Source: Stegostoma tigrinum
Lineage: Eukaryota
Assembly: GCF_030684315.1 (NCBI RefSeq)
Contig: NC_081355.1
Span: forward strand, 136,581,178 to 136,645,177
Length of the DNA: 64,000 bases
Direction of reading: 5' to 3'
Within the stretch, counting starts at the first letter, position 1. Each line of letters opens with the position of its first letter. The notes under the pieces are model-generated. The model saw only the letters and a program-made list of their open reading frames with translations. It was not told the origin of the DNA and ran no database searches. Shown piece after piece: positions 6,621 to 63,837 of the stretch. A program made the position numbers and the translations under genes.

Positions 6621-7739
6621 TTGTCATTAAGTTGACCAGCTGAGAGAACAGTGATGATGGTGGTGGAGGCGGAAAGAGACTGGTAAGGCAAACAAGCTAG
6701 ATCCAGCCCTGAGCTCCAGAAATTCCCTCTCAGCATCTCTTAACCTCTCTTATTTTTCTCCTTCGCAACACTTCTTAAAATTCTACTTCTTCGACCAAGC
6801 TTTAGATCATCTACCTTTCCATCTTTATGTGCCAGTGCCATATTTTCTTTTATAACAGCTAGGTGAAGTGCCTTGAGACACTTCATTGCCATAAAGGCAC
6901 TTTATAAATACAAGTTATGTTGACTACCAATTTATCAACCATTACTGTATAAATCTGGGTTGCATGGCTTACTATCATATAATCTAGCTCATTTATTTAT
7001 TAAGCCAAACCTAAAATAATACAGTTCACAACAGCAAAAGTGACCAAGCTTTTGCTGTAGTGAAACATGTTTGTCCATGCTACAATTAGTGAGATGTGCA
7101 GAAAAGTTCCGTCATTAAATTGAGCCATTTTACTTCCAAAGGCATTGAACTCTTATTTCCTATGGATGAGAAGTGTTTCATCAAAGCCATCTAGACTCAA
7201 ACTGTTACATTGTTCACTCTCCATGGATGCTGCCTGACTCGCTGTGGTCTCCAGCATTTGATGTTTCAATACAGATTCCAGCATCTGCAGTAATTTGCTT
7301 CTAAACTCTTATACTGTTTGCACTTCAGAATCTCAAGCTAAATTTTTTTCATTTTCTCATCATATTGCTCCTTTTGTCATTTGCCCAGATCTATCGTACA
7401 GTAACTTAGTGAGCAATCTCTATGCATTTGGGGAACACTCCCTTCACAGCTTGCTGGACCTGCTGAATATTTCCAGAATTTTCTGTTTATATTTCCAGCA
7501 GCTGCAATGATTTGCTTTTGTTTTATATTATTCAGTTTCTGAGCTAAAGAACCATTAAACACAGTCACATATTCTTCTTTGCTTTAAATATTTATTCACT
7601 TTGCCTTGAAAGAGCACTCCTTGCATCAAATAATTTTATGTTCCTGAAACATCACTGCAAAACTAAATTTCACCTCACCCTTTACTCCCGACTTGGTAAT
7701 AATTCCAAAATCAATTACCCTCATGGGCTGCTTAACAGT

Positions 7740-7950
7740 AGGAACTGCCGATACTGGAGAATCTGAGATAACAAGGTGCAGAGCTGGATGAACACAGGCC
7801 AAGCAGAATGAGGGGAGCAGGAAAGCTGATGTTTCGGGTCTAGGCCCTTCTTCAGAAGATTTTTCTGGGTTTAGACCCGAAACGGCAGCTTTCCTGCTCC
7901 TCTGATACTGCTTGGCCTGTTATGTCTATCCAGCTCTACACCTTGTAATT
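7740..7950. mobile_element. Miniature palindromic Penelope-derived element (two inverted 3' termini)
   Basis: ACAAGGTGCAGAGCTGGATG...GTTTCGGGTCTAGGCCC is inverted against GGGTTTAGACCCGAAAC...ATCCAGCTCTACACCTTGT and is homologous to the ends of 26534-27960. Confidence 0.8.
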
Positions 7951-8814
7951 TCATAAGTAAACATAATTCTTTACCATCCCCAGAACCCCATTAAATCTCC
8001 TTTTAGCTTTTTTTTGCCTCAGTGTACACTTTCATCTATATTTTCATCTAAAATGTAATGTCATTCTCATCTATATTCAACTGAATGTTCTCTTTGTTAA
8101 TTTTCTCCTGAAACTTTTTACAATGTTCCTCACCTCCAATCTCCAATTTTATACCATCGATAAATTTCAAGGTGGTATTAACAGTACCCAAATAACACAT
8201 GAATACCATGAACAAAAGTGCTCCACCAACTAAATGATATCATTTCCAAACCATCACCACTTGTCACAGCATTAATTTATCCTAATTTCAAACTATCTTA
8301 CATTTAAATAGAGTCTTTAAGACAGAAACTTGTCCCAATATGTTTAATAGAGACTAAGGAAAACAGATGCTGAATCAAAGATCAAAATTAGGAGAAGTGA
8401 ACTAGAACTTAGTCAAAGAACCTTTAAAGTAAGTGAAATGCTTAAAAAAAGGAATCAGCGCAATGTGCAAAGGAGGGAGAGTTGAATGTCTGAAGGAAGA
8501 TAGGGAAGGTGAGACGATGGAGGAATTTAGAATGAAGAATGAGAATTTTAGAATGAAAGCATTTATGGTGACTGGCATCCTACCTGGTTTGCCAATTAAT
8601 GTGTGGTGAGAGAGCATTTGATGCAAGTTAGGATCCAGATATCGGGAGTTTGGATGAATTAACATTTATGGAAAATGTAGTCTGGGAAGCCATTAGTGCA
8701 ACAATTTTCCTATCATGCTGCTACATTTCCTCTTGCATCAAACATTGTATTTTGTAGCAAACCTTTTATGAAGCACTTCATTGAATGCCTTCTGCAAATC
8801 TGTATCCATATATT

Positions 8815-17562: not shown

Positions 17563-17666
17563 TATTACAGAGGTAGCGGTTGAAATACATGTTAGACATC
17601 TACACTTTGTTTCTAAAAGCAAAGTGTAGATGTCTAACATGTATTTCAACCGCTACCTCTGTAATA
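17563..17666. repeat. Perfect 47-bp inverted repeat with a 10-nt spacer
   Basis: TATTACAGAGGTAGCGGTTGAAATACATGTTAGACATCTACACTTTG (17563-17609), spacer TTTCTAAAAG, then its exact reverse complement (17620-17666). Confidence 0.97.
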
Positions 17667-20352: not shown

Positions 20353-21640
20353 TATCTGGATGTGAGTTTGCTCGCTGAGCTGGACGGTTCGTTTTCAGAT
20401 GTTTCGTCACCATTCTAGATAACATCATCAGTGAGTCTCCGGTGAAGTGCTGATGTTATGTCCCGCTTTCTGTTTATCTGTTTAGGTTTCCTTGGGTTGG
20501 TGATGTCATTTCCTGTGTTGGTGATGTCATTTCCTGTTCTTTTTCTCAGAGGATGGTAGATGGGCTCCAAATCAATGTGTTTGTTGATGGGGTTCCAGTT
20601 GGAATGCCATGCTTCTAGGAATTCTCATGTGTGTCTCTGTTTGGCTTGTCCTAGGATGGATGTGTTGCCCCAATCAAAGTGGTGACCTTCCTCACCTGTA
20701 TGTAAGGATACGAGTGATAGTGGGTCATGTCGTTTTGTGGCTAATTGATGTTCATGTATCCTGGTGGCTAGCTTTCTGCCAGTTTGTCCAATGTAGTGTT
20801 TGTCACAGTTCTTGCATGGTATTTTGTAGATGACGTTCGTTTTGTTTGTTGTCTGTATAGGGTCTTTTAAGTTCATTAGCTGCTGTTTTAGTGTGTTGGT
20901 GGGATTGTGGGCTACCCTGATGCCAAGAGGTCCGAGTAGTCTGGCAGTCATTTCGGAAATGTCTTTGATGTAGGGGAGAGTGGTTGTGGTTTCTGAGCCC
21001 GTTTTGTCTGTTTGTTTGGGTTTGTTGCTGAGGAATCGGCGGACTGTGTTCATAGGGTACCCATTCTTTTTGAATACGCTGTATAGGTGATGCTCCTCTG
21101 CTCTTTGTAGTTCCTCTGTGCTGCAGTGTGTGGTGGCTCGTTGGAATAATGTTCTAATGCAGCTTCGTTTGTGGGTGTTGGGATGGTTGCTCCTGTAGTT
21201 CAGTATTTGGTCCGTATGTGTTGTTTTCCTGTAGACGCTGGTTTGAAGTTCCCCATTGGCTGTTCGCTCTACTGTGACATCTAGGAATAGCAGTTTGTTG
21301 TTGTTTTCCTCCTCTTTTGTGAATGTTATGCCAGTAAAGGGTATTATTGATGGTCTTGAAGGTTTCCTCTAATTTGTTTTGTTTAGTGATGACAAAGGTG
21401 TCATCCACATAGCGGACCCAAAGTTTGGGTTGGATGATTGGCAGAGCTGTTTGTTCGAGTCTCTGCATTACTGCCCCTGCTAAGAACCCTGATATCGGAG
21501 ATCCCATGGGTGTACCGTTGGTTTGTCTGTAGGTTTTGTTATTGAAAGTGAAGTGGGTGGTGAGGCATAGGTCCACTAGCTTGATGATGTTGTCCTTGCT
21601 GATGAGGTTGGTGGTGTCTGGTGTATGTGTCTTTTGAGTA
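20353..21640 (-). mobile_element. 5'-truncated Penelope-like element (RT + GIY-YIG, second family, Poseidon-like)
   Basis: RT motifs 'QTNGTPMGSPISG' and 'WVRYVDDTF' (ORF 21154-21666). GIY-YIG 'NVIYKIPCKNCDKHYIGQTGRKLATRIHEH' (ORF 20625-21053). Frameshifted. Confidence 0.92.
20395..20434 (-). ncRNA. Minimal hammerhead ribozyme motif at the PLE 3' end
   Basis: Minus strand: TCA-CTGATGA-T-GTTATC tagaat GGTGAC-GAAA-CA-TC-TGA. Stem I is TCA/TGA and stem II has 6 bp including G-U pairs. Confidence 0.7.
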
Positions 21641-22789
21641 TGGATGAAGTAATAAATTATAAGCAAATGTTTATTTTAGAATTTTTATTAAATATTGGTG
21701 TAAACTGTTTATTTAAGCTTAACCAAAATTCATCACAGCAGAAAGTAAGGTATACATACAAAAGGCCTTTAGTCGTTTAATTTTATTGATGGAAGGGTAC
21801 TTACTGGGAATTGAAATGCATGAAAGAAAATATATGTGAAACAATATTTTGACCTCTTTGCGGCTTTTAAAAGTCTAACAAAGAAAAATGCATGTATCAA
21901 AATATCTGTTATTGAAGAAAGTACGAATCTTTAAAGTTAAACAATTCTTATTTTGGCTCTGGAGATAGGAGGAACTGCTGATGCTGGAGAATCTGAGATA
22001 ACACGGTGTGAAGCTGGATGAACACAGCTGGCCAAGCAGCATCAGAGGAGCAGGAAAGTTGACATTTCAGTTCGAGACCCTTCTTCACAGCTTCACACCA
22101 TGTTATCTCATTTTGGCTCTGTTTTTTCATGTATCAGTTGCCCCAGTTTTAATACTTATAAACAATATTAATAATTTTGATGAAGGGACTGTTATTACTA
22201 TATCCAAATCTGCTGACAGTACAACAATTAAATGGAAGGATGCAAGCAATCAACATTAAGGATAGTATGAATGAGTGGGCAAATTTTTAATTTTTAAATT
22301 AATTTTTATTCATGGGATGAGAAGAGTCATGAGATAAGCCAGAATTTATCACCCTCCCTGAATGTCTTGGAGAATGTGGTGGTGAGCTGCATTCTCGAAT
22401 CCCCATTGTCCTTGGGGCAAACGTATTTCCACAATGTGTTAGGAAGGAAGTTCCAGTCCTATGACCCAACAACGGTTATGTAGTTCCAAGTCAGAGTAGT
22501 GTGAGACTTGATGCGGAATTTGCAGGTAGACATGTTCCCATGCATTGATAGCCCTTGTCCTTTCAGGTACTGCAATGTACCCTGTAGGTACCAGCATTCC
22601 ATCTAATTTTCTTAGTAGTTGAGTGGGGCTCTGCTGCCCCTATGCAGCAGTGACCTCTTGACCTAGAAGTCAATGCCTCAATTGACATGTTGATGTTTGG
22701 AACACTGAAACAGGTTAGAGGGAATGTTGGATCTTACACATTATGGTCACTGAACAGACTGAATATTTAAAGCGATGGTTGGGATCAAA

Positions 22790-24910
22790 CAAAAGGTGAC
22801 TTAATTCAGAGGAAGATCATGTCTCACTGACTTGATTAAGGATTTAGAGGCAGTAACAAGAATGCTTGCTGAGGGAAGGGCAATGGATGTTATCCCATGG
22901 GCAATGGATGTTATGCACATGGACTTTAGTAAGGCAGTTCATAAGGTACCACATGGTAGGTCGATACAGAAGATAGATTCTCATGGGATCCGGGTGAGCT
23001 GGCTAGATGGATACTAATTTGGCTTGGTCATTGAAGACAGGGAATAGCAATGAAAGGGTGCTTTTCAGAATAGAGATCAGTAACAGTAGCATTCTGCAGG
23101 GGCTAACACTGGGACCATTGTTGTTTGAAACATAAATAAATGATCTGGAGGAAAATGTAGCTGCTCGGATTAGTAAGTTTGAGAATGACACCAGCATTGG
23201 TGGAGTTGCAGATGGTAAGGAGGATTGTCATGGATACAGATGGATTGCAGATTTGGGCACAGAGATGACAGGTGGAGTTTAATCCAGAGCAAATGTGAGG
23301 TAATGCATTTTGGAAGATCAGTTGCAGGTGTGAATTATACAATAAATGGCTTAGGGACACTGGCATACAGAAGGATCTGGGTGTACAGGCCCATAATAGA
23401 ACATAGAACATTACAGCACAGTACAGGCCCTTCGGCCCTCGATGTTGTGCCGACCTGTCATACCGATCTCAAGCCCATCTAACCTACACTATTCCATGTA
23501 CGTCCATATGCTTATCCAATGACGACTTAAATGTACCTAAAGTTGGCGAATCTATTACCGTTGCAGGCAAAGCGTTCCATTCCCTTACTACTCTCTGAGT
23601 AAAGAAACTACCTCTGACATCTGTCCTATATTTTTCACCCCTCAATTTAAAGCTATGCCCCCTCGTGCTCACCGTCACCATCCTAGAAAAAAGGCTGTCC
23701 CTACCCACCCTATCTGACCCTCTGATTATTTTATATGTTTCAATTAAGTCACCTCTAAACCTTCCTCTCTCTAATGAAAACAGCCTCAAGTCCCTCAGCC
23801 TTTCCTCGTAAGACCTTCCCTCCATACCAGGCAACATCCTAGTAAATCTCCTCTGCACCCTTTCCAAAGCTTCCACATCCTTCTTATAATGCGGTGACCA
23901 GAACTGTACACAATACTCCAAGTGCGGCCGCACCAGAGTTTTGTACAGCTTCACCATAACCTCTTGGTTCCGGAACTCGATCCCTCTATTAATAAAAGCT
24001 AAAACACTGTATGCCTTCTTGACAGCCCTGTCAACCTGGGTGGCAACTTTCAAGGATCTGTGTACATGGACACCGAGATCTCTCTGCTCATCTACACTAC
24101 TAAGGATCTTACCATTAGCCCTGTACTTTGCCTTCTGGCTACTCCTACCAAAGTGCATCCGTGAAAGTGGTAACCACAAGGTGGATAAGGTGGTCAAGAA
24201 GCCATAAGCATGATTGCCTTCATTGGCTGGGCAATTGAATATACCCCGAAACGTCAGCTTTCCTGCTCCTCTGATGCTGTTTGGTCTGCTGTGTTCATCC
24301 AGCTCTACACCTTGTTATCTCTTATACAAGTTGGCAAGTTATGTTACAGCTGTACAAAAATTTAGTTCGGCCACATTTGGCATATTGCACGCAATTCTGG
24401 TTGCCACATGACAAGAAAGGCATGAATGCTTTGGAGAAGATGCAAAATAGTTTAGCAGGATGTTGTCTAGCCTGGAGGGTTTTAGTTATGAGGAGGTGTT
24501 GCATAAACTCAGATTGTTTTCACTGAAAAGACGGAGGCTGAGGGTAAACCTGATAGAAGACTACAAAATTATGGGAGGCATAGATAGGGTGGATAGTCAG
24601 AGGCCTTTTCCCAGGGTGGAATGGTCAACTATAAGAGGGCAAAGGTTCAAAGTCGGGGGGAACATTGAAGGCAGAAGTGCGGGGACAATTTTTCATACAG
24701 TGTGTGGTGGGCACCTGGAACACACTGTCAGAGGAGGTGGTGGAAGCAGGCATGTTAGCAATGTTTGAGATATATCTTGATAGGCACAAGAATGTTAGGT
24801 GAAACGAGGCATAGATACCACCCATGGGCAATATATAGTAGGCCTAATTAAGGACTAGGAACTGATGCAGGATTGGTGGGTCAAAGGGCCTGTTCTTGTG
24901 CTGTATTGAA
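22790..24910 (+). mobile_element. Older CR1 LINE (RT to 3' end) with nested insertions
   Basis: 'MDFSKAVHKVPHGR' (22832-23017) and 'LFSLKRRRLRVNLIEDYKIMGGIDRVDSQR' (24460-24768). Confidence 0.85.
23398..24158 (-). mobile_element. Young CR1 LINE 3' fragment nested in antisense
   Basis: Uninterrupted ORF 23484-24197(-), 'MHFGRSS...RPHLEYCVQFWSPH...TFKSSLDKHMD', with a (TTCTATG) tail. Confidence 0.92.
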
Positions 24911-26592
24911 CTGTATCATTACAGAGCAAAAAAAGGCCATTTGGCCTATCATGTCTGTGTCTGGCTCTGTGTAAGAACAATCTGCCTAGTGCCAACTGTA
25001 AAAAAATTCTGCTTATATTCAACAAAAATCAGCATTTAATCATGTCTACATTTCATCTTTGCAACTACTGAACTGTTTTAACATTGAATGCTCAGAACCT
25101 TGGGGTCTAAGGGCTTAAAGGTTGATATACTTTTCTTTAATATGGACCTTTGAGTTCACAGAGACCTCAAGGCAACTAGCTGTATCCATTTTAAGTTATC
25201 CCTATCTATACAATAGATTTGGATAATTATAAAGGTAAAGCATTCATCTGACCTGGTTTACAATCATTAGAAATATTTTTTCAAAACTCTGTAAAACTCT
25301 TGGATTCAATTGTGTTAATGAAATTACATGGACTATACGTAATGTTTACATTGATAAATATTGATAAAGAGAATAGCTTCAGATTGATCAAGTTGTTTAT
25401 GCAAAACAGACTAGATAAGGAGAGAGCATGATAAGGATTTTTGTAACATTCCAAAGCAAAGATATTTGACCTATTTTTTGCAGACAAGGACTATATATAA
25501 CAATAGTAGATAGTGATGACAAAATTGCTTTGTAGGGTAATGGGCTGTGAACTTTGGTCACATGGATAGTGTCCTTAGATGAATCACAGGGTGTTCCATG
25601 TTCGTGGTTTACTTGGGAAGTAAAGCCTGTCAAAAACGGTTAACCATTACCTTTATTAAGTGTTTTTAATACATAATACATCTTCCAAAATTGTAACAAA
25701 TTAATCTATCCCTTTTTTTTTTCTTCAAGTCCAAGACCTATGGAATTCACATTTGATTCTCACACACACTGCTGATTCAGAGGCAGAAACAAGGGTTAAA
25801 GTTTACTGGTGCTTCTGTGACTGAAAGTCTGTTCCCAGTGAGGGTCCATAGAGCTCAAGAACCAAATCCTTTGTTTGCAATGATTTACACTTCAATGTAA
25901 GGGGAATGATGGGAAGTTTGCAAGTGGTACCAAAATTGGCAGTATGCTTAATAGTGAAGGGTACAGCTGTAAACTAAGGATAATATTCTAGCTGAAATAT
26001 AGATATAAGAGCTGGGAGATAGGGACAAGATAGATAAAGCAGTATTTACACTGCAGCTAGAGTATTGCATGCTCAAAGCACAATCGGATTTATGTGGGTC
26101 TACTACAGAAGTTACAGAGGAGATTAACAAGGATTCTGTCTAGACAGGAGAACTTCAGTTACGAGAATGAGACAGGTTGGGTTAGGGTTATTTTGTTTTG
26201 AACAGAGAAGGCTGGGGGGATACCTAACCATGACAAAATGATTAAGGAATAGAAAGGCCCTTCCACTGATTAAGTAGTGCATAAACAGGAGTATAGCTTT
26301 AGGTTGTACTGGAGGATTAGAGGGGATTCTAGGAGAAATACTGTCACTTACAGAGTGTTTGGAATCTGGAACTCACTACCTGAAAGAATGGTATTGACAG
26401 AAGCTTAAACTATGTTTAAAAAGTACTTGGATATGCATTGAGGAGACATAACTTACAAGGTTACAGAAGAGGTGGACATTTATATTAGACCGCATGGCAA
26501 GTGTCAGCCGAAGCAAGCATGACACGTCAAAGGTAATAAAATGTGAGACTGGATGAACACAGCAGGCCAAGCAGCATCTCAGGAGCACAAAA

Positions 26593-26625
26593 GCTGACGT
26601 TTCGGGCCTAGACCCTTCATCAGAG
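26593..26625 (-). ncRNA. Minimal hammerhead ribozyme motif (left arm)
   Basis: Reverse complement of CT-CTGATGA-A-GGGT ctag GCCC-GAAA-CG-TC-AG. Confidence 0.6.
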
Positions 26626-27832
26626 AGGGGGATGGGGGGAGGGAACTGGAATAAATAGGGAGAGAGGGGGAGGCGGACCGAAGATGGAGAGTAAAGAAGA
26701 TAGGTGGAGAAGGTGTGGGTGGGGAGGTAGGGAGGGGATAGGTCAGTCCAGGGAAGACGGACAGGTCAAGGAGGTGGGATGAGGTTAGTAGGTAGCTGGG
26801 GGTGCGGCTTGGGGTGGGAGGAAGGGATGGGTGAGAGGAAGAACCGGTTAGGGAGGCAGAGACAGGTTGGACTGGTTTTGGGATGCAGTGGGTGGGGGGG
26901 AAGAGCTGGGCTGGTTGTGTGGTGCAGTGGGGGGAGGGGATGAACTGGGCTGGTTTAGGGATGCAGTGGGGGAAGGGGAGATTTTGAAACTGGTGAAGTC
27001 CACATTGATACCATATGGCTGCAGGGTTCCCAGGCGGAATATGAGTTGCTGTTCCTGCAACCTTCGGGTGGCATCATTGTGGCAGTGCAGGAGGCCCATG
27101 ATGGACATGTCATCAAGAGAATGGGAGGGGGAGTGGAAATGGTTTGCGACTGGGAGGTGCAGTTGTTTGTTGCGAACTGAGCGGAGGTGTTCTGCAAAGC
27201 GGTCCCCAAGCCTCCGCTTGGTCTACATTGGGGAAACCAAGCGGAGGCTTGGGGACCGCTTTGCAGAACACCTCCGCTCAGTTCGCAACAAACAACTGCA
27301 CCTCCCAGTCGCAAACCATTTCCACTCCCCCTCCCATTCTCTTGATGACATGTCCATCATGGGCCTCCTGCACTGCCACAATGATGCCACCCGAAGGTTG
27401 CAGGAACAGCAACTCATATTCCACCTGGGAACCCTGCAGCCATATGGTATCAATGTGGACTTCACCAGTTTCAAAATCTCCCCTTCCCCCACTGCATCCC
27501 TAAACCAGCCCAGTTCATCCCCTCCCCCCACTGCACCACATAACCAGCCCAGCTCTTCCCCCCCACCCACTGCATCCCAAAACCAGTCCAACCTGTCTCT
27601 GCCTCCCTAACCGGTTCTTCCTCTCACCCATCCCTTCCTCCCACCCCAAGCCGCACCCCCAGCTACCTACTAACCTCATCCCACCTCCTTGACCTGTCCG
27701 TCTTCCCTGGACTGACCTATCCCCTCCCTACCTCCCCACCCACACCTTCTCCACCTATCTTCTTTACTCTCCATCTTCGGTCCGCCTCCCCCTCTCTCCC
27801 TATTTATTCCAGTTCCCTCCCCCCATCCCCCT

Positions 27833-27864
27833 CTCTGATGAAGGGTCTAGGCCCGAAACGTCAG
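27833..27864 (+). ncRNA. Minimal hammerhead ribozyme motif (right arm)
   Basis: CT-CTGATGA-A-GGGT ctag GCCC-GAAA-CG-TC-AG: the conserved core boxes, a 4-bp stem II, palindromic ACGT in place of stem III, and only a short stem I. Confidence 0.6.
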
Positions 27865-28019
27865 CTTTTGTGCTCCTGAGATGCTGCTTGGCCTGCTGTG
27901 TTCATCCAGCCTCACATTTTATTATCTTGGAATCTCCAGCATCTGCAGTTCCCATTATCTATGACACGTCAAAGGACCTTCTTTCATGCTGTGAATTTCT
28001 TTGATATATTCAGAAGGTC

Positions 28020-29100
28020 AGGAGGAATGGGATACAGGGGAACTTAGCTGCTTGGATACAGAATTGGCTGGCCAACAGAAGACAGCGTGTGGTAGTAGAA
28101 GGAAAATATTCTGCCTGGAAGTCAGTGGTGAGTGGGGTTCCACAGGGCTCTGTCCTTGGGCCTCTACTGTTTGTAATTTTTATTAATGACTTGGACGAGG
28201 GAATTGAAGGATGGGTCAGCAAGTTTGCAGACGACACAAAGGTCGGAGGTGTCGTTGACAGTGTAGAGGGCTGTTGTAGGCTGCAGCGGGACATTGACAG
28301 GATGCAGAGATGGGCTGAGAGGTGGCAGATGGAGTTCAACCTGGATAAATGCGAGGTGATGCATTTTGGAAGGTCGAATTTGAAAGCTGAGTACAGGATT
28401 AAGGATAGGATTCTTGGCAGCGTGGAGGAACAGAGGGATCTTGGTGTGCAGATACATAGATCCCTTAAAATGGACAGGGTTGTTAAGAAAGCATATGGTG
28501 TTTTGGCTTTCATTAACAGGGGGATTGAGTTTAAGAGTCGTGAGATCTTGTTGCAGCTCTATAAAACTTTGGTTAGACCGCACTTGGAATACTGCGTCCA
28601 GTTCTGGGCGCCCTATTATAGGAAAGATGTGGATGCTTTGGAGAGGGTTCAGAGGTTTACCAGGATGCTGCCTGGACTGGAGGGCTTATCTTATGAAGAG
28701 AGGTTGACTGAGCTCGGTCTCTTTTCATTGGAGAAAAGGAGGAGGAGAGGGGACCTAATTGAGGTATACAAGATAATGAGAGGCATAGATAGAGTCGATA
28801 GCCAGAGACTATTTCCCAGGGCAGAAATGGCTAGCACGAGGGGTCATAGTTTTAAGCTGGTTGGTGGAAAGTATAGAGGGGATGTCAGAGGCAGGTTCTT
28901 TACGCAGAGAGTTGTGAGAGCATGGAATGCGTTGCCAGCAGCAGTTGTGGAAGCAAGGTCATTGGGGTCATTTAAGAGACTGCTGGACATGCATATGGTC
29001 ACAGAAATTTGAGGGTGCATCCATGAGGATCAATGGTCGGCACAACATTGTGGGCTGAAGGGCCTGTTCTGTGCTGTACTGTTCTATGTTCTATGTTCTA
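28020..29100 (+). mobile_element. Young 5'-truncated CR1 LINE (RT domain, 307-aa ORF)
   Basis: 'SGVPQGSVLGPLLFVIFINDLD', 'KFADDTK' and 'RPHLEYCVQFW', with a 3' (TTCTATG)n tail. Confidence 0.95.
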
Positions 29101-29720: not shown

Positions 29721-30494
29721 CAAATATCAATTTCTTGTCCATCATCAGTAACTCCTGTTTTAAGTTTTTGTTTCACTTCCCAATAACTGTTTGAAAAATA
29801 ATTGCATTATCATTCGACTCAATGTAAAGAATTTTTAAGATGGAAGAACATATTGTGCAAATTGCTGAATATCCACACTTTTGGACTGATCTAAGAGATT
29901 GTAACCAGTCAATAAAAATGAAATACTAGTAGTGGATGCTGGGAACCTGACTTAAAAACAAAGAAGACTGAAGAAATTCAGGAGGTCTAGCAAAAAGAAA
30001 CAGGGGTTGGCTAGCTCACAACAACAGCATAAGTTTCTGGAAAAGCTCAGCAGGTCTTGCAGAATCTGTGAGGGAAAAAGCAGCGCTAACATTTCTGAGA
30101 TAGTAGGAACTGTAGATGCTGGAAAATCTGAGACAATAAGGTGTAGAGCTGGATGAACCCAGCAGGCCAAGTAGCATCAGAGGAGCAGAAGGCTGACGTT
30201 TCAGGCCCGGACCCTTCTTAACATTTCTGGTTCGGTGACCTTTCCTCAGCACCGGAGTTGTTATACTGGTTAGCTCAATTTGCTGGACTGTTATTGCCAC
30301 TGAGTTCAATTCCGCTCCAGCCGAAGTTACCATAAGATATTCACTCACTAAAGTTAAAACCCTCTCCAGACATATTTTTCTCTCTCTCTCCCCCCGACCC
30401 CTCTGGCGGAAACAGCAATCTTGTAGTCTTTCTCTTTAGAGAAAAACAAGAGTTAGCGTTTCGAGTCCGATAATAACTTCTTCAGAACTTTTAA

Positions 30495-43115: not shown

Positions 43116-45712
43116 ATAACGAGGTGTAGAGCTGGATGAACACAGCAGGTCAAGCAGCATCAGAAGTGCAGGAAGTCTGATGTTTCGGGCCTAGACCCTT
43201 CATCAGAAATGGAAGGGAAGGAGGTTCTGAAATAAATAGGGAGAGAGGGGGAGGCGGATTGAAGATAGACAAAGGAGACGATAGGTGGAGAGGAGACAGA
43301 CAGGTCAAAGAAGCGGTGATGGAGCCATTCAAGGTGAGTGTAAGTGGGGAGTTAGGGAGGAGATAGGTCAATCCAAGGAAGACGGACAGGTCAAGGGGGC
43401 AGGATGAGGTTAGTCGGTTGGAGTTGGGGATGGGGCTTGAAGTGGGAGGAGTAGATAGGTGGGAGGAAGGACAGGTTAGGGAGGCAAGGACAAGCTGGGC
43501 TGGTGTTGGGAAGCGGTAGGTGGACAGGAGATTTTGAAGCTTGTGAAGACCACATTGATACCATTGGGCTACAGGGTTCCCATGTGGCAAATGAGTTGCT
43601 GGTCCTGCAACCTTCAGGTGGCATCGTTGTGGCACTGCAGGAGGACCAGGATGGACATGTCTAAGAAATGGGAGGGCAAGTTGAAATGGTTCGCGACTGG
43701 GAGTTGCAGTTGTTTAGTGCGAACTGAGCGTAGGTGTTCTGCAAATCAGTCCACAAGCCTCCACTTGGTTTCCCCAATGTAGAGGAGGCCACAACAGGAA
43801 CAGTGGATGCAGTATTCCACATTAGCAGAAGTGCAAGTGAATCTCTGCTTGATGTGGAAAGTCTTCTTGGTGCCTGGGATGGGGATGAGGGGGGAGGTGT
43901 AGGGGCGGATGTAGCACTTCTGTGGTTGCAGCGAAAAGTGCCGGGTGTGGTGGGGCTGCAGGGGAGTGTGGGGCAGACAAGGGAGTCACAGAGAGAGTGG
44001 TCTCTCCGGAAAGCAGATAAGGGTGGGGAAAGAAAAATGTCTTTGGTGGTGGGGTTGGATTGCAGATGGCAGAAGAGTCGGAGGAGTGGTACGTGAGGAC
44101 AAGGTGGGATTCTGTTTTGGTTGTTGCAGGGAGTGGGTGTGAGGAATGAGTTGCGGGGAATGCGGGAGACACGGTCGAGGGTGCTCTCGACCACGGAGGG
44201 GGGTTGTTACAGTCCTTGAAAAACAAGGACATCTGAGATATACGGGAGTGGAATGCCTCATCCAGGGAGCAGATGCGGTGGAGGTGAAGGAATTGGGAAT
44301 GGGGATGGCATTTTTACAGGAGGGTGGTTGGGAGGTGGTGTATTCTAGGTAGCTGTGGGAGTCAGTGGGCCGGAAATGGGTGGGGTAGTTGCCAGAGACA
44401 TCCATTTCAAGCCCACTGACTCCCACAGCTACCTAGAATATACTTCCTCCCACCCACCCTCCTGCAAAAATACCATCCCCTGTTCCCAATTCCTTCACCT
44501 CCACTGCATCTGCTTCCAGGATGAGGCATTCCACTCAAATACATCTCAGATATCATCCTCGTTTTTCAAGGACCGCAACATCCCCCGAATCAGTGGTCAA
44601 GAATGCCCGCAACTCATCCCTCACACGCCCTCCCCACAATAACAACCAAAAGAGAATCTCCCTCGTCCTCACGTACCACCCCACCAATATCAGGATCCAA
44701 TGCATCATCCTCCGAGACTTCCGCCATCTGCAATCCGACCCCACAACCAAAGGCATTTTTCTCTCCGCACCCATATCTGCTTTCCAGAAGGACCCGGTCT
44801 CTGTGACTCCCTTGTCTGCTGCACACTCCCCTCCAGCCACACCACACCTGGCACTTTTCCCTGCAACTGCAGGAAGTGCTACACCCACCCCTACACATTC
44901 TCCCACATCCCCATCCCAGGGCCCAAGACGACTTTCCACATCAAGCAGATGTTCACCTGCACATCTGCTAATGTGGTATACTGCATCCGCTGTTCCCGTT
45001 GTGGCCTCCTCTACATTGGGGAAACCAAGCAGGGGCTTGGGGACTGCTTTGCAGAACACCTTTGCTCGGTTTGCACTAAACAACTGCAACTCCCAGTCGC
45101 GAACCATTTCAACTCCCCCTCCTACTCCTCAGACGATTTGTCCATCCTGGGCCTCCTGCAGTACCACAACGACGTCACCCGAAGGTTGCAGGAACAGTAA
45201 CTCATATTCCACTTGGAAACCCTGCAGCCCAATGGTATCAATATGGACTTCACAAGCTTCAAAATCTCCCCTCCCACTACCGCATCCCAAAACCAGCCCA
45301 GCTCTTCCCTGCCTCACTAACTTGTCCTTTCTCCCACCTATCGCCTCCTCCCACCCCAAGCCACACCGCCATCTCCGACTGACTAACCTCATCCTGTCCC
45401 CTTGACCTGTCCATCCTCCCTGGGCTGCCCATCTCCTCTCTACCTCTCCACCTATACTCACCTTTACTGGCTCCATCCCCACTTCTTCGACATGTCTGTC
45501 TCCTCTCCACCTATCTTCTCCTTTATCCATCTTCTATCCACCTATCTCCCTATTTACTTCAGAATCCCCATCCCCTCCCCCATTTCTGATGAAGGGCCTA
45601 GGCTCAAAATGTCAGCCCTCCTGCAGCTCTGATGCTGCTTGGCTTGCTGTGTTCATCATGCTCTACATCTTGTTATCTCAGATTCTCCGGCATCTGCAGT
45701 TGCTACTATCTC
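43116..45712. mobile_element. Older fold-back Penelope-like (Neptune-like) insertion with ~1.27-kb inverted arms
   Basis: Arms ~43116-44382 and ~44399-45676 both start at 'F(K/R)PTDSHSYLEYT'. They encode 'FPCNCRKCYT...NVVYCIRCSRCGLLYIGETK'. The tail runs to 45712. The TSD TGGA(G/T)AAACAA is at 43101-43111 and 45713-45723. Confidence 0.9.
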
Positions 45713-48245: not shown

Positions 48246-48562
48246 GAGGTTGGCTCGCCGAGCTCGTCTGTTGTTCCGTGGATGTTTCGTTACTGTGCTA
48301 GGTAACATCCTCAGTGCAGCCTCTGATCAAGCGTTGACCGCATATACATTCCACTATGAAGGAAACCCATTAAGTGAGGCAATCCATCGCAATGGACCCC
48401 AGAGTTTAAAAACCTGGCAGGAAAACACACCGACGCTTCATCAGAGGCTGCACTGAGGATGTTAACAAGCCCAGTAACAAAACGTCTGCAGAACAACAAA
48501 CCAGCTCAGCTAGCCAACGAACCTCAACACCCACAACCTGAGCTACAGATCTACTCCAAAAC
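48246..48562. mobile_element. Miniature palindromic PLE-derived element with two hammerhead motifs
   Basis: Arms of ~90 bp (48246-48336 and 48432-48526) plus a ~36-nt tail. The termini resemble the 3' end of the PLE at 20353. Confidence 0.75.
48448..48491 (+). ncRNA. Minimal hammerhead ribozyme motif (G12-to-A decayed copy)
   Basis: CTGCA-CTGAGGA-T-GTTAAC aagccca GTAAC-AAAA-CG-TC-TGCAG, with a perfect 5-bp stem I. The mirror copy at 48276-48319(-) keeps GAAA and a perfect GTTAC/GTAAC stem II. Confidence 0.7.
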
Positions 48563-49539: not shown

Positions 49540-51235
49540 GGAAAGGCAAAGCCAACGTAGCTTTGCTCGTGGAAAATCGTGTCTCATGCAATTAAATGAG
49601 TTTTTGAAGAAGCGGCATAGAAGATTGATGAAAGCAGAGCATGTGACTTCTGTATGGACTTCAAAACATTTGCTAATGTTCTGAATTATTTGGTTGGATA
49701 AAGTGGGATCCAGGGGGAGCTAACCAACTGCATACAAAATTGGCTTGAAGGTAGGAGTCAGAGGGTGGTGCTAGAGGATTGCTCTGCAAGCTGGATGCCT
49801 GTGACCAGCGGTGTGCCACAAGCATCAGTGCAGGGTCCACTGCTTTTTGGCATTTATATAAATAATTTTGATGTGAATATTGGAGGCATGGTTCATAGGT
49901 TTGCAAATGACACCTAAATTGGTGTTGTAGCGGACAGTGAAGATTATCTCAGAATACAATGGGACCTTAATCAATGGGGTAATGGACCAAGAAGAGGTAG
50001 ATGGAGTCTGATTTAGACAATGTGAGGAGTTGCATTTTGGTAAGGCAAACGGGGGGGCAGGACGTGGGCAGTTAATAATGGTCCTGGTGAGTGCTGCCAA
50101 ACAAAGAGACCTAGGGGTGCAGGCGCATAGATCCTCAAAGTCAAGTTGTAGATAAACAGCGTGGTGAAGAAAGCACCACACAACCAGCCCAGCCCTTCCC
50201 CCCCACCCACTGCATCCCAAAACCAGTCCAACCTGTCTCTGCCTCCCTAACCGGTTCTTCCTCTCACCCATCCCTTCCTCCCACCCCAAGCCGCACCCCC
50301 AGCTACCTACTAACCTCATCCCACCTCCTTGACCTGTCCGTCTTCCCTGGACTGACCTATCCCCTCCCTACCTCCCCACCTACACCCTCTCCACCTATCT
50401 TCTTTACTCTCCATCTTCGGTCCGCCTCCCCCTCTCTCCCTATTTATTCCAGTTCCCTCCCCCCATCCCCCTCTCTGATGAAGGGTCCAGGCCCGAAACG
50501 TCAGCTTTTGTGCTCCTGAGATGCTGCTTGGCCTGCTGTGTTCATCCAGCCTCACATTTTATTATCTTGGAATCTCCAGCATCTGCAGTTCCCATTATCT
50601 CTGGTGAAGAAAGCGTTTGGCACGCCTGCCTTCATTAGTCAGAACATTAAGTGTAGGAGTTGGGATGTCAAGTTGCATCTGTATAGGTCATTGGTGGGGC
50701 CAATTTTAGAATACTACGCACAATTCTGGTTATCCTTCTATAGCGAAGATGATGTCAAACTTGAGAGGGTGCAGAAAAGATTTACAAGGATGTTGCTGGG
50801 ACTGGAGGATTGAGTTACAGGGACAGGCTGATTAAGCTGGGACGTTTACTTCCCTGTAGCATTGAAGGCCTTTTCAAAGATTATAAAAATCATGAGGGGC
50901 ATGAATAGGATGAATTGCCAAAGTCTTTTTGCTAGGGTGGGGAGTCCAAAACTAGATGGCATAGATTTAAGTTAAGAAGGTAATGATTTACAAGGGATCT
51001 GAAGGGTAACTTTCTCACATAGACGGTGGTGCTTGTATGGAGTAAGCTGCCAGAACAAGTGGTGGAGGCAGGTACAATTACAACATTTAAGGGTCATCTG
51101 GATGGGTATATGAATATGAATGGTTAGAGGGACATGCACCAACTGCTGGCAAATTGGACCTGGTCGGGTTGGGATACCCGGGTCAGCACGGACAAGTTGG
51201 AGTAGAGGGTCTGTTTCCGTGCTGTGTGACTCTAT
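49540..51235 (+). mobile_element. Degenerate CR1 LINE
   Basis: 'SFARGKSCLMQLNEF' and 'LVGPILEYYAQFW...LERVQKRFTRML'. Confidence 0.85.
50175..50601 (+). mobile_element. Young Penelope-like 3' fragment with hammerhead motif (50473-50504), nested in CR1
   Basis: Nearly identical to 27535-27960. The 13-bp TSD TGGTGAAGAAAGC is at 50162-50174 and 50602-50614. Confidence 0.92.
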
Positions 51236-51474: not shown

Positions 51475-51699
51475 CTAAAGAATGAACAGATGTTACTTAC
51501 TGAGATGTAAATATTTGATATTTTAGCAGCAAAATTACCACAGAAATATTATCGGTGAGTAAACAAATCAAATGCTCAAACTCCAGTCATGTGGTTGCAG
51601 TGGGAGAGAGACTCACTGAGTTCTCTTCAGAAAGAGAAGGAAAACTTCAAGGTGGACATCTTTAGAAAAAACTTCGCAGAATGGTTTTCATTGACTCGG

Positions 51700-51950
51700 A
51701 GACTGTAAGGACAGCTGATGCTGGAAGCTAGAGTCGATAAGTGTTGGAGCTGAGAAAGCAGGTCAGACAGCATCTGAGGAGCAACAAAGTCAATGTTTCG
51801 GGCCAAAACCCTTTGTCAGAAGTCTTGGCAAAGGGTTCTAACCCAAAACATTGACTTTCCTGCTCCTCAGATGCAGTCTGACCTGCTGTGCTTTTCCAGC
51901 TCTACATTTATTGACTCCAGTTCTGGCATGTGCAGTCCTTACTGTCTCCA
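51700..51950. mobile_element. Miniature palindromic Penelope-derived element
   Basis: GGAGACTGTAAGGACAGC...CATCTGAGGAGCAACAAAGTCAATGTTTCGGG is inverted against CCCAAAACATTGACTTTCCTGCTCCTCAGATG...GCAGTCCTTACTGTCTCC. Confidence 0.75.
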
Positions 51951-52220
51951 AACTCCAGTCAGCCAGGTACTCCTGTTCAGTGCATCTGGAAAGAATTCTT
52001 ATCTGCATCTCACATTTTAATGAAGAAACCCAACAGCAATATCCAGAGATATCTCCTTTTCAAATATTCAACTATATATATTTAATAAAGCTAGTCAAAT
52101 GTCCACTAAGCCCAATTGTTTTGGAAACATCAAGTTGTCTGACATCAATCCTTACGGGGCCCTCAAAACATGTGATTTGCACCATAAGCACTATAACCTG
52201 CAAAGCCATGGATCAAGTAC

Positions 52221-52838
52221 ACCTCCGCTCAGTTCGCAATAAACAACTGCACCTCCCAGTCGCAAACCATTTCCACTCCCCCTCCCATTCTTTAGATGAC
52301 ATGTCCATCATGAGCCTCCTGCAGTGCCACAATGATGCCACCCGAAGGTTGCAGGAACAGCAACTCATATTCCGCTTGGGAACCCTGCAGCCCAATGGTA
52401 TCAATGTGGACTTCACCAGCTTCAAAATCTCCCCTTCCCCCACCGCATCCCAAAACCAGCCCAGCTCTTCCCCTCCACCCACTGCATCCCAAAACCAGTC
52501 CAACCTGTCTCTGCCTCCCACCTGTTCTTCCTCTCACCCATCCCTTCCTCCCACCCCAAGCCGCACCTCCATCTCCTACCTACTAACCTCATCCCACCTC
52601 CTTGACCTGTCCGTCTTCCCTCGACTGACCTATCCCCTCTCTACCTCCCCACCTATACTCTCCTCTCCACCTATCTTCTTTTCTCTCCATCTTCGGTCTG
52701 CCTCCCCCTCTCTCCCTATTTATTCCAGAACCTTCACCCCATCCCCCTTTCTCATGAAGGGTCTAGGCCCGAAACATCAGCTTTTGTGCTCCTGAGATGC
52801 TGCTGGGCCTGCTGTGTTCATCCAGCCTCACATTTTAT
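52221..52838 (+). mobile_element. Penelope-like 3' fragment (single arm, no tail)
   Basis: 'HLRSVRNKQLHLPVANHF...RRLQEQQLIFRLGTLQPNGIN'. The 10-bp TSD GATCAAGTAC is at 52211-52220 and 52839-52848. Confidence 0.92.
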
Positions 52839-53948: not shown

Positions 53949-55602
53949 ATAACACGGTATAGAGCTGGATGAACACAGCAGGCCAAGCAGCATCAGAGGA
54001 GCAGGAAGGCTGATGGTTCGGGCCTAAACCATTCTTCAGAAATGGGGGAGGGAAAGGGGGTTCTGAAATAAATAGGGAGAGAGGGGGAGGTGGATAGAAG
54101 ATGGATGAAGGAGAAGATAGGTGGAGAGGAGACAGACAGGTCAAAAAGGCGGGGATGGAGCCAGTAAAGGTGGGTGTAGATGGGGAGTTAGGAAGGAGAA
54201 AGGTCAGTCCAGGGAGGACGGACAGGTCAAGGGAGCGGGATGAGGTTAGTAGGTAGGAGATGGGGGTGGTGTTTGAGGTGGGAGGTGGGGACGAGCTGGG
54301 CTGGTTTTGGGATGCAGTAGGGGGAGGGGAGATTTTGAAGCTCGTGAAGTCCACATTGATACCATTGGGCTGTAGCATTCCCAAGCAGAATATGGGTTGC
54401 TGTTCCTGCAACCTTCGGGTGACATCATTGTGGCACTGCAGGAGGACCAGGATGGACATGTCATTTGAAGGGAAAGGGGAGTTGAAATACTTCACAACTG
54501 GGAGATGCAGTTGTTTATTGCGAACCAAGCGAGGCTGTTCTGCAAAGTGGTCCCCAAGCCTCCGCTTGATTTCCCCGATGTAGAGGAGGTCACAACAGGA
54601 ACAGCGGATACAGTACACCACATTAGCAGATATGCAGGTGAACACCTCCTTGATGCGGTAAGTCTTCTTGGGGCCTGGGATAGGGGTGAGGGGTATGGTG
54701 TAGGGTTAGGTGTAGCACTTCCTGCCATTGCAGGGAAAAGTGCAGGGTGTGCAACCGCAGGATATTTTCTCTACAACAGCAGGAAGTGCTACAACTGCCC
54801 CAACACCTCCCCCAACACCCCCATCCCAGGCCCCAAGCCTTTCCACATCAAACAGATGTTCACCTGCACATCTGCCAATGTGGTATACTGCATCCGCTGT
54901 TTCCGTTGTGGCCTCCTCTATATCAGGGAAACCAAGCGGAGGTTTGGGGACTGCCTTGCAGAACACCTACACTCGGTTCACACTAAACAACTGCACCTTC
55001 CAGTCATGAACCACTTCAACTCACCCTCCCTTCCTTAGAAAACATGTCCATCCTGGGCCTCCTAGAGTACCACAACGATGCCACCTGAAGGTTGCAGGAA
55101 CAGTAACTCATAATCCCCTTGGGAACCCTGCAGCCCAATGGTATCAATGTGGACTTGACAAGTTTCAAAATCTCCCCACCTCCTACTGCATCCCAAAACC
55201 AGCACAGTTCATCCCCGCCTCCCTAAACTGTCCTTTCTCCCACGTATCCCCTCCCCTCCCACCCCATCTCCTACCTACTGACCTCATCCCGCCCCTTGAC
55301 CTGTGTCCTCCCTGGACTGACCTATCTCCTCCTTAACTCCCCACCTACACTCACCTTTACTGGGTCCATCCCCGCCTCTTTGACCTGTCTGTCTCCTCTC
55401 CACCTATCTTCTCCTTTATCCATCTTCTATCCACCTCCCCCCTCTCTCCCTATTTATTTTAGAACCCCCTTCCCCTCCCCCATTTCTGATGAAGGATTTA
55501 GGCCCGAAACATCAGCCTTCCTGCTCCTCTGATGCTGCTGTTCATCAAGTTTTACACAGTGTTATCTCAGATTCTCCAACATCTGTAGTTCCTACTATCT
55601 CT
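53949..55602. mobile_element. Older fold-back Penelope-like insertion with ~0.8-kb inverted arms
   Basis: GIY-YIG 'NVVYCIRC..C.LLYI.E.KRR' is on both strands (ORFs 53941-54645 - and 54505-55038 +). The centre is at ~54750. The direct repeat AGGTGTTAGT is at 53936-53945 and 55609-55618. Confidence 0.9.
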
Positions 55603-55916
55603 GAAACAAGGTGTTAGTGGTGTTGTAATTACAATGTCATAAATTAGTTATTACAGGTCTACATTGAACAGGGGATGGAAGTTATCTTTCTTGATAATCT
55701 GTTCTTCTTCCTGACTCCCCTTGTTTACAAATTCTCTAATCTTGCTGGGCTCAACATTGAAAATTATCTTTTACATCTGCTCCTAATTAAAACTTTATGT
55801 CTGCCGGTCTAACTAATGATTTATCTAGCAGGGATCACTTTGGAAGAGGGCACAATTTACAGAATTTAATAAGAATAATGTCAGATGATCAAACCATCAA
55901 GTAAAATTTTAACAGT

Positions 55917-57379
55917 GATAATGGGAACTGCAGATGCTGGAGATTCCAAGATAATAAAATGTGAGGCTGGATGAACACAGCAGGCCAAGCAGCATCTCAG
56001 GAGCACAAAAGCTGACGTTTCGGGCCTAGACCCTTCATCAGAGAGGGGGATGGGGGGAGGGAACTGGAATAAATAGGGAGAGAGGGGGAGGCGGACCGAA
56101 GATGGAGAGTAAAGAAGATAGGTGGAGAGGGTATAGGTGGGGAGGTAGGGAGGGGATAGGTCAGTCCAGGGAAGACGGACAGGTCAAGGAGGTGGGATGA
56201 GGTTAGTAGGTAGCTGGGGGTGCGGCTTGGGGTGGGAGGAAGGGATGGGTGAGAGGAAGAACCGGTTAGGGAGGCAGAGACAGGTTGGACTGGTTTTGGG
56301 ATGCAGTGGGTGGGGGGGGAAGAGCTGGGCTGGTTGTGTGGTGCAGTGGGGGGAGGGGATGAACTGGGCTGGTTTAGGGATGCAGTGGGGGAAGGGGAGA
56401 TTTTGAAACTGGTGAAGTCCACATTGATACCATATGGCTGCAGGGTTCCCAGGCGGAATATGAGTTGCTGTTCCTGCAACCTTCGGGTGGCATCATTGTG
56501 GCAGTGCAGGAGGCCCATGATGGACATGTCATCAAGAGAATGGGAGGGGGAGTGGAAATGGTTTGCGACTGGGAGGTGCAGTTGTTTGTTGCGAACTGAG
56601 CGGAGGTGTTCTGCAAAGCGGTCCCCAAGCCTCCGCTTGGTCTACATTGGGGAAACCAAGCGGAGGCTTGGGGACCGCTTTGCAGAACACCTCCGCTCAG
56701 TTCGCAACAAACAACTGCACCTCCCAGTCGCAAACCATTTCCACTCCCCCTCCCATTCTCTTGATGACATGTCCATCATGGGCCTCCTGCACTGCCACAA
56801 TGATGCCACCCGAAGGTTGCAGGAACAGCAACTCATATTCCACCTGGGAACCCTGCAGCCATATGGTATCAATGTGGACTTCACCAGTTTCAAAATCTCC
56901 CCTTCCCCCACTGCATCCCTAAACCAGCCCAGTTCATCCCCTCCCCCCACTGCACCACACAACCAGCCCAGCTCTTCCCCCCCACCCACTGCATCCCAAA
57001 ACCAGTCCAACCTGTCTCTGCCTCCCTAACCGGTTCTTCCTCTCACCCATCCCTTCCTCCCACCCCAAGCCGCACCCCCAGCTACCTACTAACCTCATCC
57101 CACCTCCTTGACCTGTCCGTCTTCCCTGGACTGACCTATCCCCTCCCTACCTCCCCACCCACACCTTCTCCACCTATCTTCTTTACTCTCCATCTTCGGT
57201 CCGCCTCCCCCTCTCTCCCTATTTATTCCAGTTCCCTCCCCCCATCCCCCTCTCTGATGAAGGGTCTAGGCCCGAAACGTCAGCTTTTGTGCTCCTGAGA
57301 TGCTGCTTGGCCTGCTGTGTTCATCCAGCCTCACATTTTATTATCTTGGAATCTCCAGCATCTGCAGTTCCCATTATCT
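55917..57379. mobile_element. Hybrid fold-back Penelope-like element at the duplication junction
   Basis: The right part is a copy of 26.9-27.96 kb. The left end carries the 36-nt tail and variants absent from copy 1, and it lacks the left TSD. Confidence 0.9.
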
Positions 57380-57438
57380 ATGACACGTCAAAGGACCTTC
57401 TTTCATGCTGTGAATTTCTTTGATATATTCAGAAGGTC

Positions 57439-62104: not shown

Positions 62105-62362
<258 letters not shown>

Positions 62363-63669: not shown

Positions 63670-63837
<168 letters not shown>

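What the first reader, a model, noticed from the sequence alone, without database searches (positions are those of the whole stretch)
26519..27975. Fold-back Penelope insertion: one TSD, two 689-bp mirror arms, a hammerhead core on each strand
Seen: two 5'-truncated copies of the same GIY-YIG retroelement joined head-to-head across a 13-nt spacer, about 99.5% identical, inside one perfect 15-bp TSD. It therefore came from a single insertion event. The same architecture recurs independently at 43116-45712 and 53949-55602 with different truncation points. Established: Penelope-like elements often carry inverted pseudo-LTR segments and hammerhead motifs. Inference: here near-symmetric fold-back is a routine product of integration, through cDNA self-priming on a hairpin or two RNAs primed on opposite target nicks. 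Any transcript crossing it would form a ~0.7-kb dsRNA stem containing a potential self-cleavage site.
Basis: partly seen in the sequence, partly recalled or inferred. Interest (0 to 1): 0.78.

Follow-up and report, generated by a model that had tools for sequence, protein, structure and literature searches.

The report
Double-primed head-to-head Penelope insertion
This 1.4-kb DNA mirror is a real, dead, single insertion of a very abundant Penelope-type jumping gene in a layout already described for that group, and about a hundred sister insertions suggest it was likely made by copying the element's RNA from both cut ends of the target site and joining the two copies, not by one copy folding back on itself.

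Summary
In detail: 15-bp TSD, 689-bp arms 99.6% identical, a hammerhead core on each strand. It is a 5'-truncated Neptune-type Penelope-like element (PLE) in the known head-to-head layout. The 13-nt 'spacer' is ordinary element sequence, and only the right arm carries the 36-nt PLE tail.

Such pairs are routine: 28 of 68 insertion units in 1 Mb of unselected tiles. Near-symmetry of long arms is not: 3 of 19. In 81 of 82 classifiable pairs exactly one arm has the tail, while solo copies split 39:44. In 16 of 81 pairs neither arm contains the other, which rules out fold-back self-priming as the general route and favours priming from both target nicks at two alternative RNA start sites, then end-joining. 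5' ends pile up just upstream of the hammerhead core and at its predicted cut (595 symmetric joints genome-wide against 21-50 at control sites).

The scan has reported this PLE pattern before on other DNA.

The parts
26519..26533 (.). Left copy of the 15-bp target-site duplication
   Evidence: modal TSD of sister pairs is 14-15 bp (44 of 82)
26534..27222 (-). Tail-less 5'-truncated PLE arm, 689 nt (end of GIY-YIG coding region, 3' UTR/pLTR, hammerhead core)
26596..26623 (-). Minimal hammerhead core of the left arm
   Evidence: motif read from sequence, activity untested
27223..27235 (+). 13-nt unpaired centre = extra 5' sequence of the right arm (YIG codons); joint has 1 nt of microhomology at 27222
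27223..27960 (+). Tailed 5'-truncated PLE arm; C-terminal half of the GIY-YIG endonuclease in frame to a stop at 27610
   Evidence: Pfam GIY-YIG E 0.22 for this fragment, 0.00037 for a longer sister copy, both under the curated cut-off
27801..27835 (+). TATA-like 7-mer at 27801-27807 and, about 30 nt downstream, the sharp boundary (27830-27835) where many sister copies begin: putative RNA start
   Evidence: 34 of 221 mapped 5' ends at 27830-27835 equivalents; a full-length copy begins there (L213); promoter function inferred
27835..27862 (+). Minimal type-I hammerhead core; predicted cut between 27862 and 27863; helix I only 2 bp
   Evidence: sequence; layout compared with PMC4209133
27925..27960 (+). 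36-nt PLE tail, on this arm only; holds a weak stem-loop (-5.5 kcal/mol, z -0.5, not better than shuffles)
27961..27975 (.). Right copy of the TSD
55913..57379 (.). Second mirror: chimera of a solo copy (own 14-bp TSD, about 29.4 kb further right, beyond the window) and the focal element; two tails, no TSD; junction of a tandem duplication
43116..45712 (.). Older independent head-to-head pair, tail on the right arm only, arms 86% identical
53949..55602 (.). Older independent head-to-head pair, tail on the right arm only, arms 88% identical

Best explanation
The locus is one insertion of a Neptune-type Penelope-like retrotransposon, made of two 5'-truncated copies joined head-to-head inside a 15-bp TSD, and it was most likely built by reverse transcription primed from both ends of a staggered target cut followed by end-joining. 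Inferred steps: (1) the element's endonuclease, probably as a dimer, cuts both strands about 14-15 nt apart; (2) each 3' end primes cDNA on element RNA, one at an outer start site (arm with tail) and the other at an inner site about 36 nt upstream (arm without tail), the two sites being used once each per event; (3) each cDNA stops on its own, either at a fixed RNA end (putative RNA start; predicted hammerhead cut) or at a random internal point, as here in the GIY-YIG coding region; (4) the two cDNA 3' ends are joined by end-joining with 0-4 nt of microhomology or a short patch, and the gaps are filled. Shown here: the anatomy, the one-tail rule, the non-nested pairs, TSD lengths, junction types and 5'-end peaks. 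The focal copy is a dead fragment; its near-symmetry (ends 14 nt apart) is atypical for long arms and is either chance or both cDNAs running off one broken RNA end.
For: One-tail rule: of 90 pairs at 85% identity or more, 81 have one tail, 1 has two, 0 have none, 8 unclassifiable (p 2e-23 against a coin toss), while solo copies are 39 tailed, 44 tail-less, 12 unclear. Out of sample: 14 of 14 readable long pairs (18 tried) are one-tailed; 5 new symmetric stubs gave 2 one-tailed, 1 two-tailed, 2 unclear. Non-nesting: the tail-less arm reaches over 30 nt further 5' in 16 of 81 pairs, the tailed arm in 14 of 81. TSD 10-18 bp in 71 of 82 pairs, mode 14-15. Junctions of 53 young pairs: 21 with 1-4 nt overlap, 8 blunt, 24 with extra letters, several visibly copied from nearby element sequence. 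In vitro, a lizard PLE protein cuts and extends both target strands, starts at two RNA sites that bracket the tail and is predicted to be a dimer (PMC11167929).
Against: The focal pair itself is nested (the tailed arm is longer at both ends), so fold-back cannot be excluded for this one locus, although its joint has only 1 nt of microhomology. Near-symmetric long pairs are slightly more common than shuffled partners give (3 of 19, p 0.02; 2 of 18, p 0.065 without the focal pair). Two two-tailed pairs exist. One RNA or two is not settled: arms agree at subfamily-diagnostic sites more than matched random copies (91 discordant sites against 196 +/- 14), yet several pairs are discordant at many sites, which gene conversion could also cause. 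The in vitro data come from a Poseidon-clade element, not from this family, and did not test coupling of the two start sites. The tail stem-loop is not better than shuffles.
Confidence: 0.72

Rival explanations
1. Self-priming: one cDNA (or an antisense template) folds back and is copied, giving a hairpin that is resolved with loss of the tail on one side. Proposed for rotifer PLEs in PMC3846280 and one of the first reader's two options.
For: The focal pair is nested and nearly symmetric, and its arms share alleles at three sites where neighbouring copies differ; arms are usually of one haplotype; short palindromic joints are common.
Against: 16 of 81 pairs have a tail-less arm that reaches over 30 nt further 5', so neither arm can be a copy of the other, and many of these have TSDs; the side with the longer 5' end is random (14 against 16, p 0.86); the focal joint would be a 13-nt loop closed by one base pair.
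Confidence: 0.12
2. Double priming as in the best explanation, but the tail asymmetry arises after synthesis (endonuclease trimming of one end during resolution, as suggested in PMC8557442) and not from two RT start sites.
For: PMC8557442 passage; PMC11167929 cites endonuclease recognition of the tail in the fly element; genomic ends alone cannot tell trimming from initiation.
Against: The lizard protein starts at both tail boundaries in vitro; both ends abut an intact TSD in most pairs, which leaves little room for later trimming.
Confidence: 0.1
3. The palindrome is a mobile unit of its own (a hairpin RNA or MITE-like element copied whole).
For: 595 exact symmetric stubs share one joint genome-wide.
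Against: The focal joint occurs only twice in the genome, here and in the local duplicate; junctions differ from pair to pair; the shared joint sits on a fixed RNA end, where recurrence is expected.
Confidence: 0.03
4. Read or assembly fold-back artefact, or chance neighbours joined by recombination.
For: The same window holds a recombinant mirror and a duplication that read depth does not support; central and right junctions were not seen on listed contigs.
Against: Perfect TSD, unequal arms, three arm differences, different flanks; left junction on one contig in 2 samples; genome-wide orientation bias and TSDs.
Confidence: 0.03

Closest known systems
Complex insertions of endonuclease-bearing Penelope-like elements (PMC3846280, PMC8557442; passages read)
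   Same: Inverted 5'-truncated copy head-to-head, 30-40 bp tail often at one end only, one TSD around the whole unit.
   Different: Those papers describe the tail as optional or 'often' one-sided and favour self-priming or endonuclease resolution. Here the one-tail rule is near absolute (97 of 99 classifiable pairs over) and non-nested arms argue against self-priming. TSDs are longer (14-15 bp against 8-10 bp in the rotifer).
PAc, Poseidon element of the green anole, in vitro (PMC11167929; main text read, supplements not)
   Same: Both strands cut and extended, two RT start sites bracketing the tail, hammerhead in the pLTR, predicted dimer.
   Different: Poseidon clade; its ORF starts inside the hammerhead, whereas here the first ATG of the long ORF lies about 40 nt past the tail. 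That paper saw no difference in start site between strands and no RNA reads at the hammerhead cut; here the two ends differ per event and genomic 5' ends peak at the predicted cut.
Minimal hammerheads of metazoan PLEs (PMC4209133; results and discussion read)
   Same: Core boxes, extra nucleotide after A9, G-C first pair of helix II, palindromic stub for helix III; opposite-strand pairs 100-700 bp apart were already noted in a fluke genome.
   Different: Helix I is 2 bp (as in the fly variant) and not 4-5 bp; the paper had no in vivo evidence of cleavage.
L1 twin priming (recalled, no paper read)
   Same: Both target nicks prime cDNA and the products are joined by microhomology, leaving an inversion inside one TSD.
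   Different: In L1 the second nick primes far inside one RNA, so the two pieces are different parts of the element; here both arms start at the element's 3' end and overlap almost fully.

Membership tests
Penelope-like elements, endonuclease-bearing | Single ORF with PLE-type RT (DKG motif, YxDD) and C-terminal GIY-YIG endonuclease | tested here: met
   Long sister copies give one open frame of 814-894 codons with these motifs; Pfam RVT_1 E 5e-05 and GIY-YIG E 0.0035, both below curated cut-offs. The focal copy holds only the C-terminal fragment.
Penelope-like elements, endonuclease-bearing | CCHH motif with two cysteines between GIY and YIG | tested here: met
   Two cysteines lie between the two motif halves in sister copies; definition from PMC8557442. 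The two histidines were not assigned by alignment.
Penelope-like elements, endonuclease-bearing | pLTR: 3' end repeated upstream of the ORF in full-length copies | tested here: met
   7 of 30 long loci carry the 3' end through the tail directly upstream of the 5' ORF region.
Penelope-like elements, endonuclease-bearing | 30-40 bp tail and TSD | tested here: met
   36-nt tail and 15-bp TSD; family-wide.
Neptune clade | CX2-5CxxC zinc-finger-like linker between RT and endonuclease | tested here: met
   C-x4-C-x2-C upstream of GIY-YIG; the linker is shared with Nematis.
Neptune clade | RT phylogeny places it with Neptune | not tested
   No tree with reference PLE sequences was built.
Minimal hammerhead ribozyme of PLEs | Core boxes, helix II, palindromic helix III stub | tested here: met
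   Read from 27835-27862; core columns 87-100% conserved over 138-203 copies, lowest at CpG sites. Rfam lists no hammerhead hit at E 1 or better.
Minimal hammerhead ribozyme of PLEs | Helix I of 4-5 bp | tested here: not met
   Only 2 bp can form; the predicted minimum-energy fold is an alternative hairpin that buries the core. A 2-bp helix I is reported for the fly variant.
Minimal hammerhead ribozyme of PLEs | Self-cleavage | not testable with these tools
   Indirect only: 5'-end peak at the predicted cut.
Self-copying fold-back element (MITE-like or retrozyme) | Same internal junction at many loci with different TSDs | tested here: not met
   2 genome-wide matches, both local.

The most novel reading that the evidence does not exclude
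Every insertion of this PLE family is made by an asymmetric double-priming machine: a dimer cuts both strands 14-15 nt apart and obligately starts one cDNA at each of two RNA sites, so solo copies are events that lost one arm; and the minimal hammerhead really cuts in the germ line, its 3' product being a routine template. That would explain tails, inverted pLTRs and TSD length by one mechanism distinct from L1 or R2 integration.
Probability: 0.5. Interest if true: 0.68.

Novelty: new member of a known kind. Interest (0 to 1): 0.42.

Why it matters
The locus is an ordinary dead PLE fragment in a published layout. Its value is as one of tens of thousands of fossil integration products (107,075 exact matches of a 31-nt end motif). 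How PLE inverted repeats and tails arise, and whether PLE hammerheads cut in vivo, are stated open questions (PMC8557442, PMC11167929, PMC4209133). The counts here turn them into sharp predictions: coupled use of two start sites per event, 14-15 nt 3' overhangs, RNA 5' ends at two fixed positions. They also imply a genome dense in near-perfect inverted repeats and recombination substrates, with a local example that may be an assembly error.

Tried and rejected
Rfam scan: no hammerhead family; the miRNA-like hits at the mirror centres are far below gathering scores and only reflect hairpins. BLAST-type search of the genome with the element's 3' part returned nothing because common words are skipped, so exact patterns were used. 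No RNA holder was listed for the flank: no evidence either way on transcription or dsRNA. Pfam scan of 17 window ORFs found only retroelement domains; short host exons would be missed. Cap signature (extra G at the putative RNA start): 17 of 34 against 44 of 176 elsewhere, but confounded by base exclusion and by the partner arm, so inconclusive. Empty site: the joined flanks match no continuous repeat in the loci held, and no empty allele was listed in the 4 runs. The bacterial promoter scan is not suited to this genome and found nothing. The 595 symmetric joints alone cannot place the RNA end, since blunt joining of two arms ending 2 nt further 3' gives the same letters; the flanking-base counts were run for that reason, and the position 2 nt downstream was not counted genome-wide. 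No structure prediction or complex job was run.

Full report
Observation. The inverted repeat is at the stated place. An exact 15-bp direct repeat flanks it at 26519-26533 and 27961-27975. The arms, 26534-27222 and 27236-27924, are 689 nt with 3 mismatches. The 13 unpaired nt are natural element sequence: they translate as part of the YIG motif and continue into upstream element sequence in a solo copy. The right arm has 36 more nt at its 3' end. So the unit is a tail-less arm and a tailed arm that is longer at both ends, joined with 1 nt of microhomology. The left flank, TSD and start of the left arm lie on one contig in all 4 runs laid, from 2 samples of 1 study. The central and right junctions were not among the listed pieces and rest on the assembly.

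Identity. The window is G000:C2:136581178-136645177 in a 3.2-Gb genome; earlier scan notes call it a shark, which I did not test. A 31-nt motif from the element's 3' end has 107,075 exact matches. Long sister copies carry one open frame with PLE-type RT motifs, a C-x4-C-x2-C linker and a GIY-YIG domain with two internal cysteines. By the definitions in PMC8557442 (passages) that is Neptune-type; no tree was built. Seven of 30 long loci show the pLTR layout, with the long ORF's first ATG about 40 nt past the tail. Head-to-head inverted copies, a one-sided 30-40 bp tail and a shared TSD are described in PMC3846280 and PMC8557442 (passages).

Survey. I read five unselected 200-kb tiles, loci around the first 100 motif matches on C1 (of these, one search was enriched for visible pairs, the rest filled in afterwards) and the non-duplicated parts of the extended window. 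Copies under 85% identity to a single real reference copy were dropped. In the tiles, 28 of 68 insertion units are head-to-head pairs; adjacent copies were 28 head-to-head, 5 tandem, 1 tail-to-tail, against about 0.6 expected. Over all sets, of 90 pairs 81 have exactly one tail, 1 has two, none has zero and 8 could not be classed. Solo copies are 39 tailed, 44 tail-less, 12 unclear, so independent choice would give half mixed pairs; p is 2e-23. As a prediction test I fetched the far ends of 18 long pairs: 14 of 14 readable ones are one-tailed, 4 unreadable; 5 new symmetric stubs gave 2 one-tailed, 1 two-tailed, 2 unclear. TSDs of 10-18 bp were found in 71 of 82 pairs, mode 14-15, in 35 of 83 solos, and in 2 of 150 shuffled flank pairs.

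Fold-back or two primers. A fold-back copy must lie within its template at both ends. The tail-less arm reaches over 30 nt further 5' in 16 of 81 pairs and the tailed arm in 14, so many pairs are not nested, and many of those have TSDs. Among 19 pairs with both arms over 200 nt, lengths are uncorrelated and 3 are symmetric within 20 nt, the focal pair included (p 0.02; 2 of 18 and p 0.065 without it). Of 53 young junctions, 21 overlap by 1-4 nt, 8 are blunt and 24 carry extra letters, several copied from nearby element sequence; some of the longest gaps may be alignment break-offs at mutated bases. This is what end-joining of two separate cDNA ends would leave (inference). It fits the in vitro behaviour of the anole element, which cuts and extends both strands and starts at two sites bracketing the tail (PMC11167929, main text read; supplements not read, and its Fig. 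S2 bears on tail ends). Against: the focal pair is nested, and arms are usually of one haplotype (91 discordant diagnostic sites against 196 +/- 14 for matched random partners), though some pairs are discordant at up to 13 of 27 or 16 of 50 sites. One RNA or two remains open.

Where the copies stop. Of 221 mapped 5' ends, 34 fall at positions equal to 27830-27835 and 46 more or less taper 3' of there, with 1 in the 14 nt upstream; 11 fall at 27863, the base after the predicted hammerhead cut, with 36 ends in the 13 positions from there 3' against 5 in the 13 positions 5'. The first boundary lies 30 nt after a TATA-like 7-mer and one full-length copy begins there, so I infer an RNA start. For the second, exact symmetric joints on the 4-nt palindrome just after the cut number 595 genome-wide, against 31, 50 and 21 on three neighbouring 4-nt palindromes (two controls contain CpG, the third does not). 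Breaks in the sequence at the cut number 6,022 (4,832 without the symmetric joints), against 2,551 one base upstream and 2,439 one base downstream, all including point mutations. In my local sample the 13 such hits were 8 from symmetric joints, 3 other truncations and 2 small mutations; 3 truncations also lay 2 nt downstream, at the foot of a predicted hairpin where RT could stall. So in vivo cleavage is likely but not shown. Helix I has only 2 bp.

The dsRNA claim. A read-through RNA would form a stem of about 690 bp on either strand, but it carries one sense hammerhead core, fully paired to its mirror in the predicted fold. These minimal motifs are reported to be inactive as monomers (PMC4209133). 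Cleavage inside the stem is therefore unlikely. Nothing here shows transcription across the locus.

The duplication. Window 26527-56641 recurs at 55945-86060 (numbering extended past the window), 30,116 nt at 99.97%. The second mirror's left arm carries the alleles and flank of a solo copy at 85332-86421 that has its own 14-bp TSD, then switches to the focal alleles within 56312-56591. It has two tails and no TSD, so it is a recombinant junction and not an insertion. Between the crossover points the two 29-kb copies differ at one base. Contig depth inside the segment is 1.19, 0.75, 0.84 and 0.89 times that of the single contig just outside, not 1.5 or 2. The tool warns that depth is no copy number and the comparator is one contig per run, so this is a hint: an assembly error, or an event absent from these samples. 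It does not touch the focal element, whose joint occurs only at these two places.

Novelty. The layout is published. My searches for a double-priming account of PLEs (open-access library only) found none, nor a count of tail asymmetry or genomic evidence of hammerhead cleavage; a 2026 preprint on retrozymes had no such passage. Older reviews by Arkhipova and Evgen'ev and the L1 twin-priming paper are recalled and were not seen. The scan's notes hold 120 findings with the same key words in at least 20 genomes, several with the same reading in this genome; I formed my reading before the look-up and do not count them as support. Verdict: a new member of a known kind; the locus is ordinary, the family statistics make two open mechanistic questions testable. 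Interest 0.42.

Noticed in passing
window 26527-56641 and 55945-64000 (continues to G000:C2:136667237): 29.4-kb tandem duplication bounded by same-strand PLE copies, one base different between crossover points, at single-copy contig depth in 2 samples; possible assembly error or rare recombination product.
   Followed up: yes
window 32397, 32908, 34930: Read contigs show variants absent from both assembled copies of the duplicated segment, so both copies seem to come from one haplotype.
   Followed up: partly
window 28007-29100: Young, 5'-truncated LINE fragment with an RT domain begins about 30 nt right of the TSD; very high copy number in reads.
   Followed up: no
window 20628-22090: Another, older PLE copy on the minus strand with RT and GIY-YIG Pfam hits.
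   Followed up: no
window 7737-7953, 21962-22090, 24245-24324, 30092-30223, 50173-50603, 52216-52842: Further stubs and solo copies of the same PLE end, young and old; 7737-7953 is a small one-tailed mirror.
   Followed up: partly
window 17563-17666: 104-nt near-perfect palindrome (96%) unrelated to the PLE end, apparently with an internal repeat.
   Followed up: no
window 48249-48518 and 51698-51949: Older short palindromes (70% and 77% arm identity); the second has hammerhead-like arms.
   Followed up: no
window 27222 and loci on C1 and C6: All three near-symmetric long pairs stop within the same 45-nt stretch of the GIY-YIG coding region (727-772 nt from the 3' end); could mark a further RNA end or stall site. 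Too few to test.
   Followed up: partly
L203, L206, L213, L217, L220, L221, L224: The N-terminal part of the ORF holds a variable-length Pro/Thr/Asp-rich repeat that keeps the frame in all 7 copies.
   Followed up: no
L079-L098 (G000:C10 about 40066900-40067300 and 40112100-40112250): Short internal pieces of the element repeated in tandem next to an inverted arm, as if by repeated template jumps.
   Followed up: no
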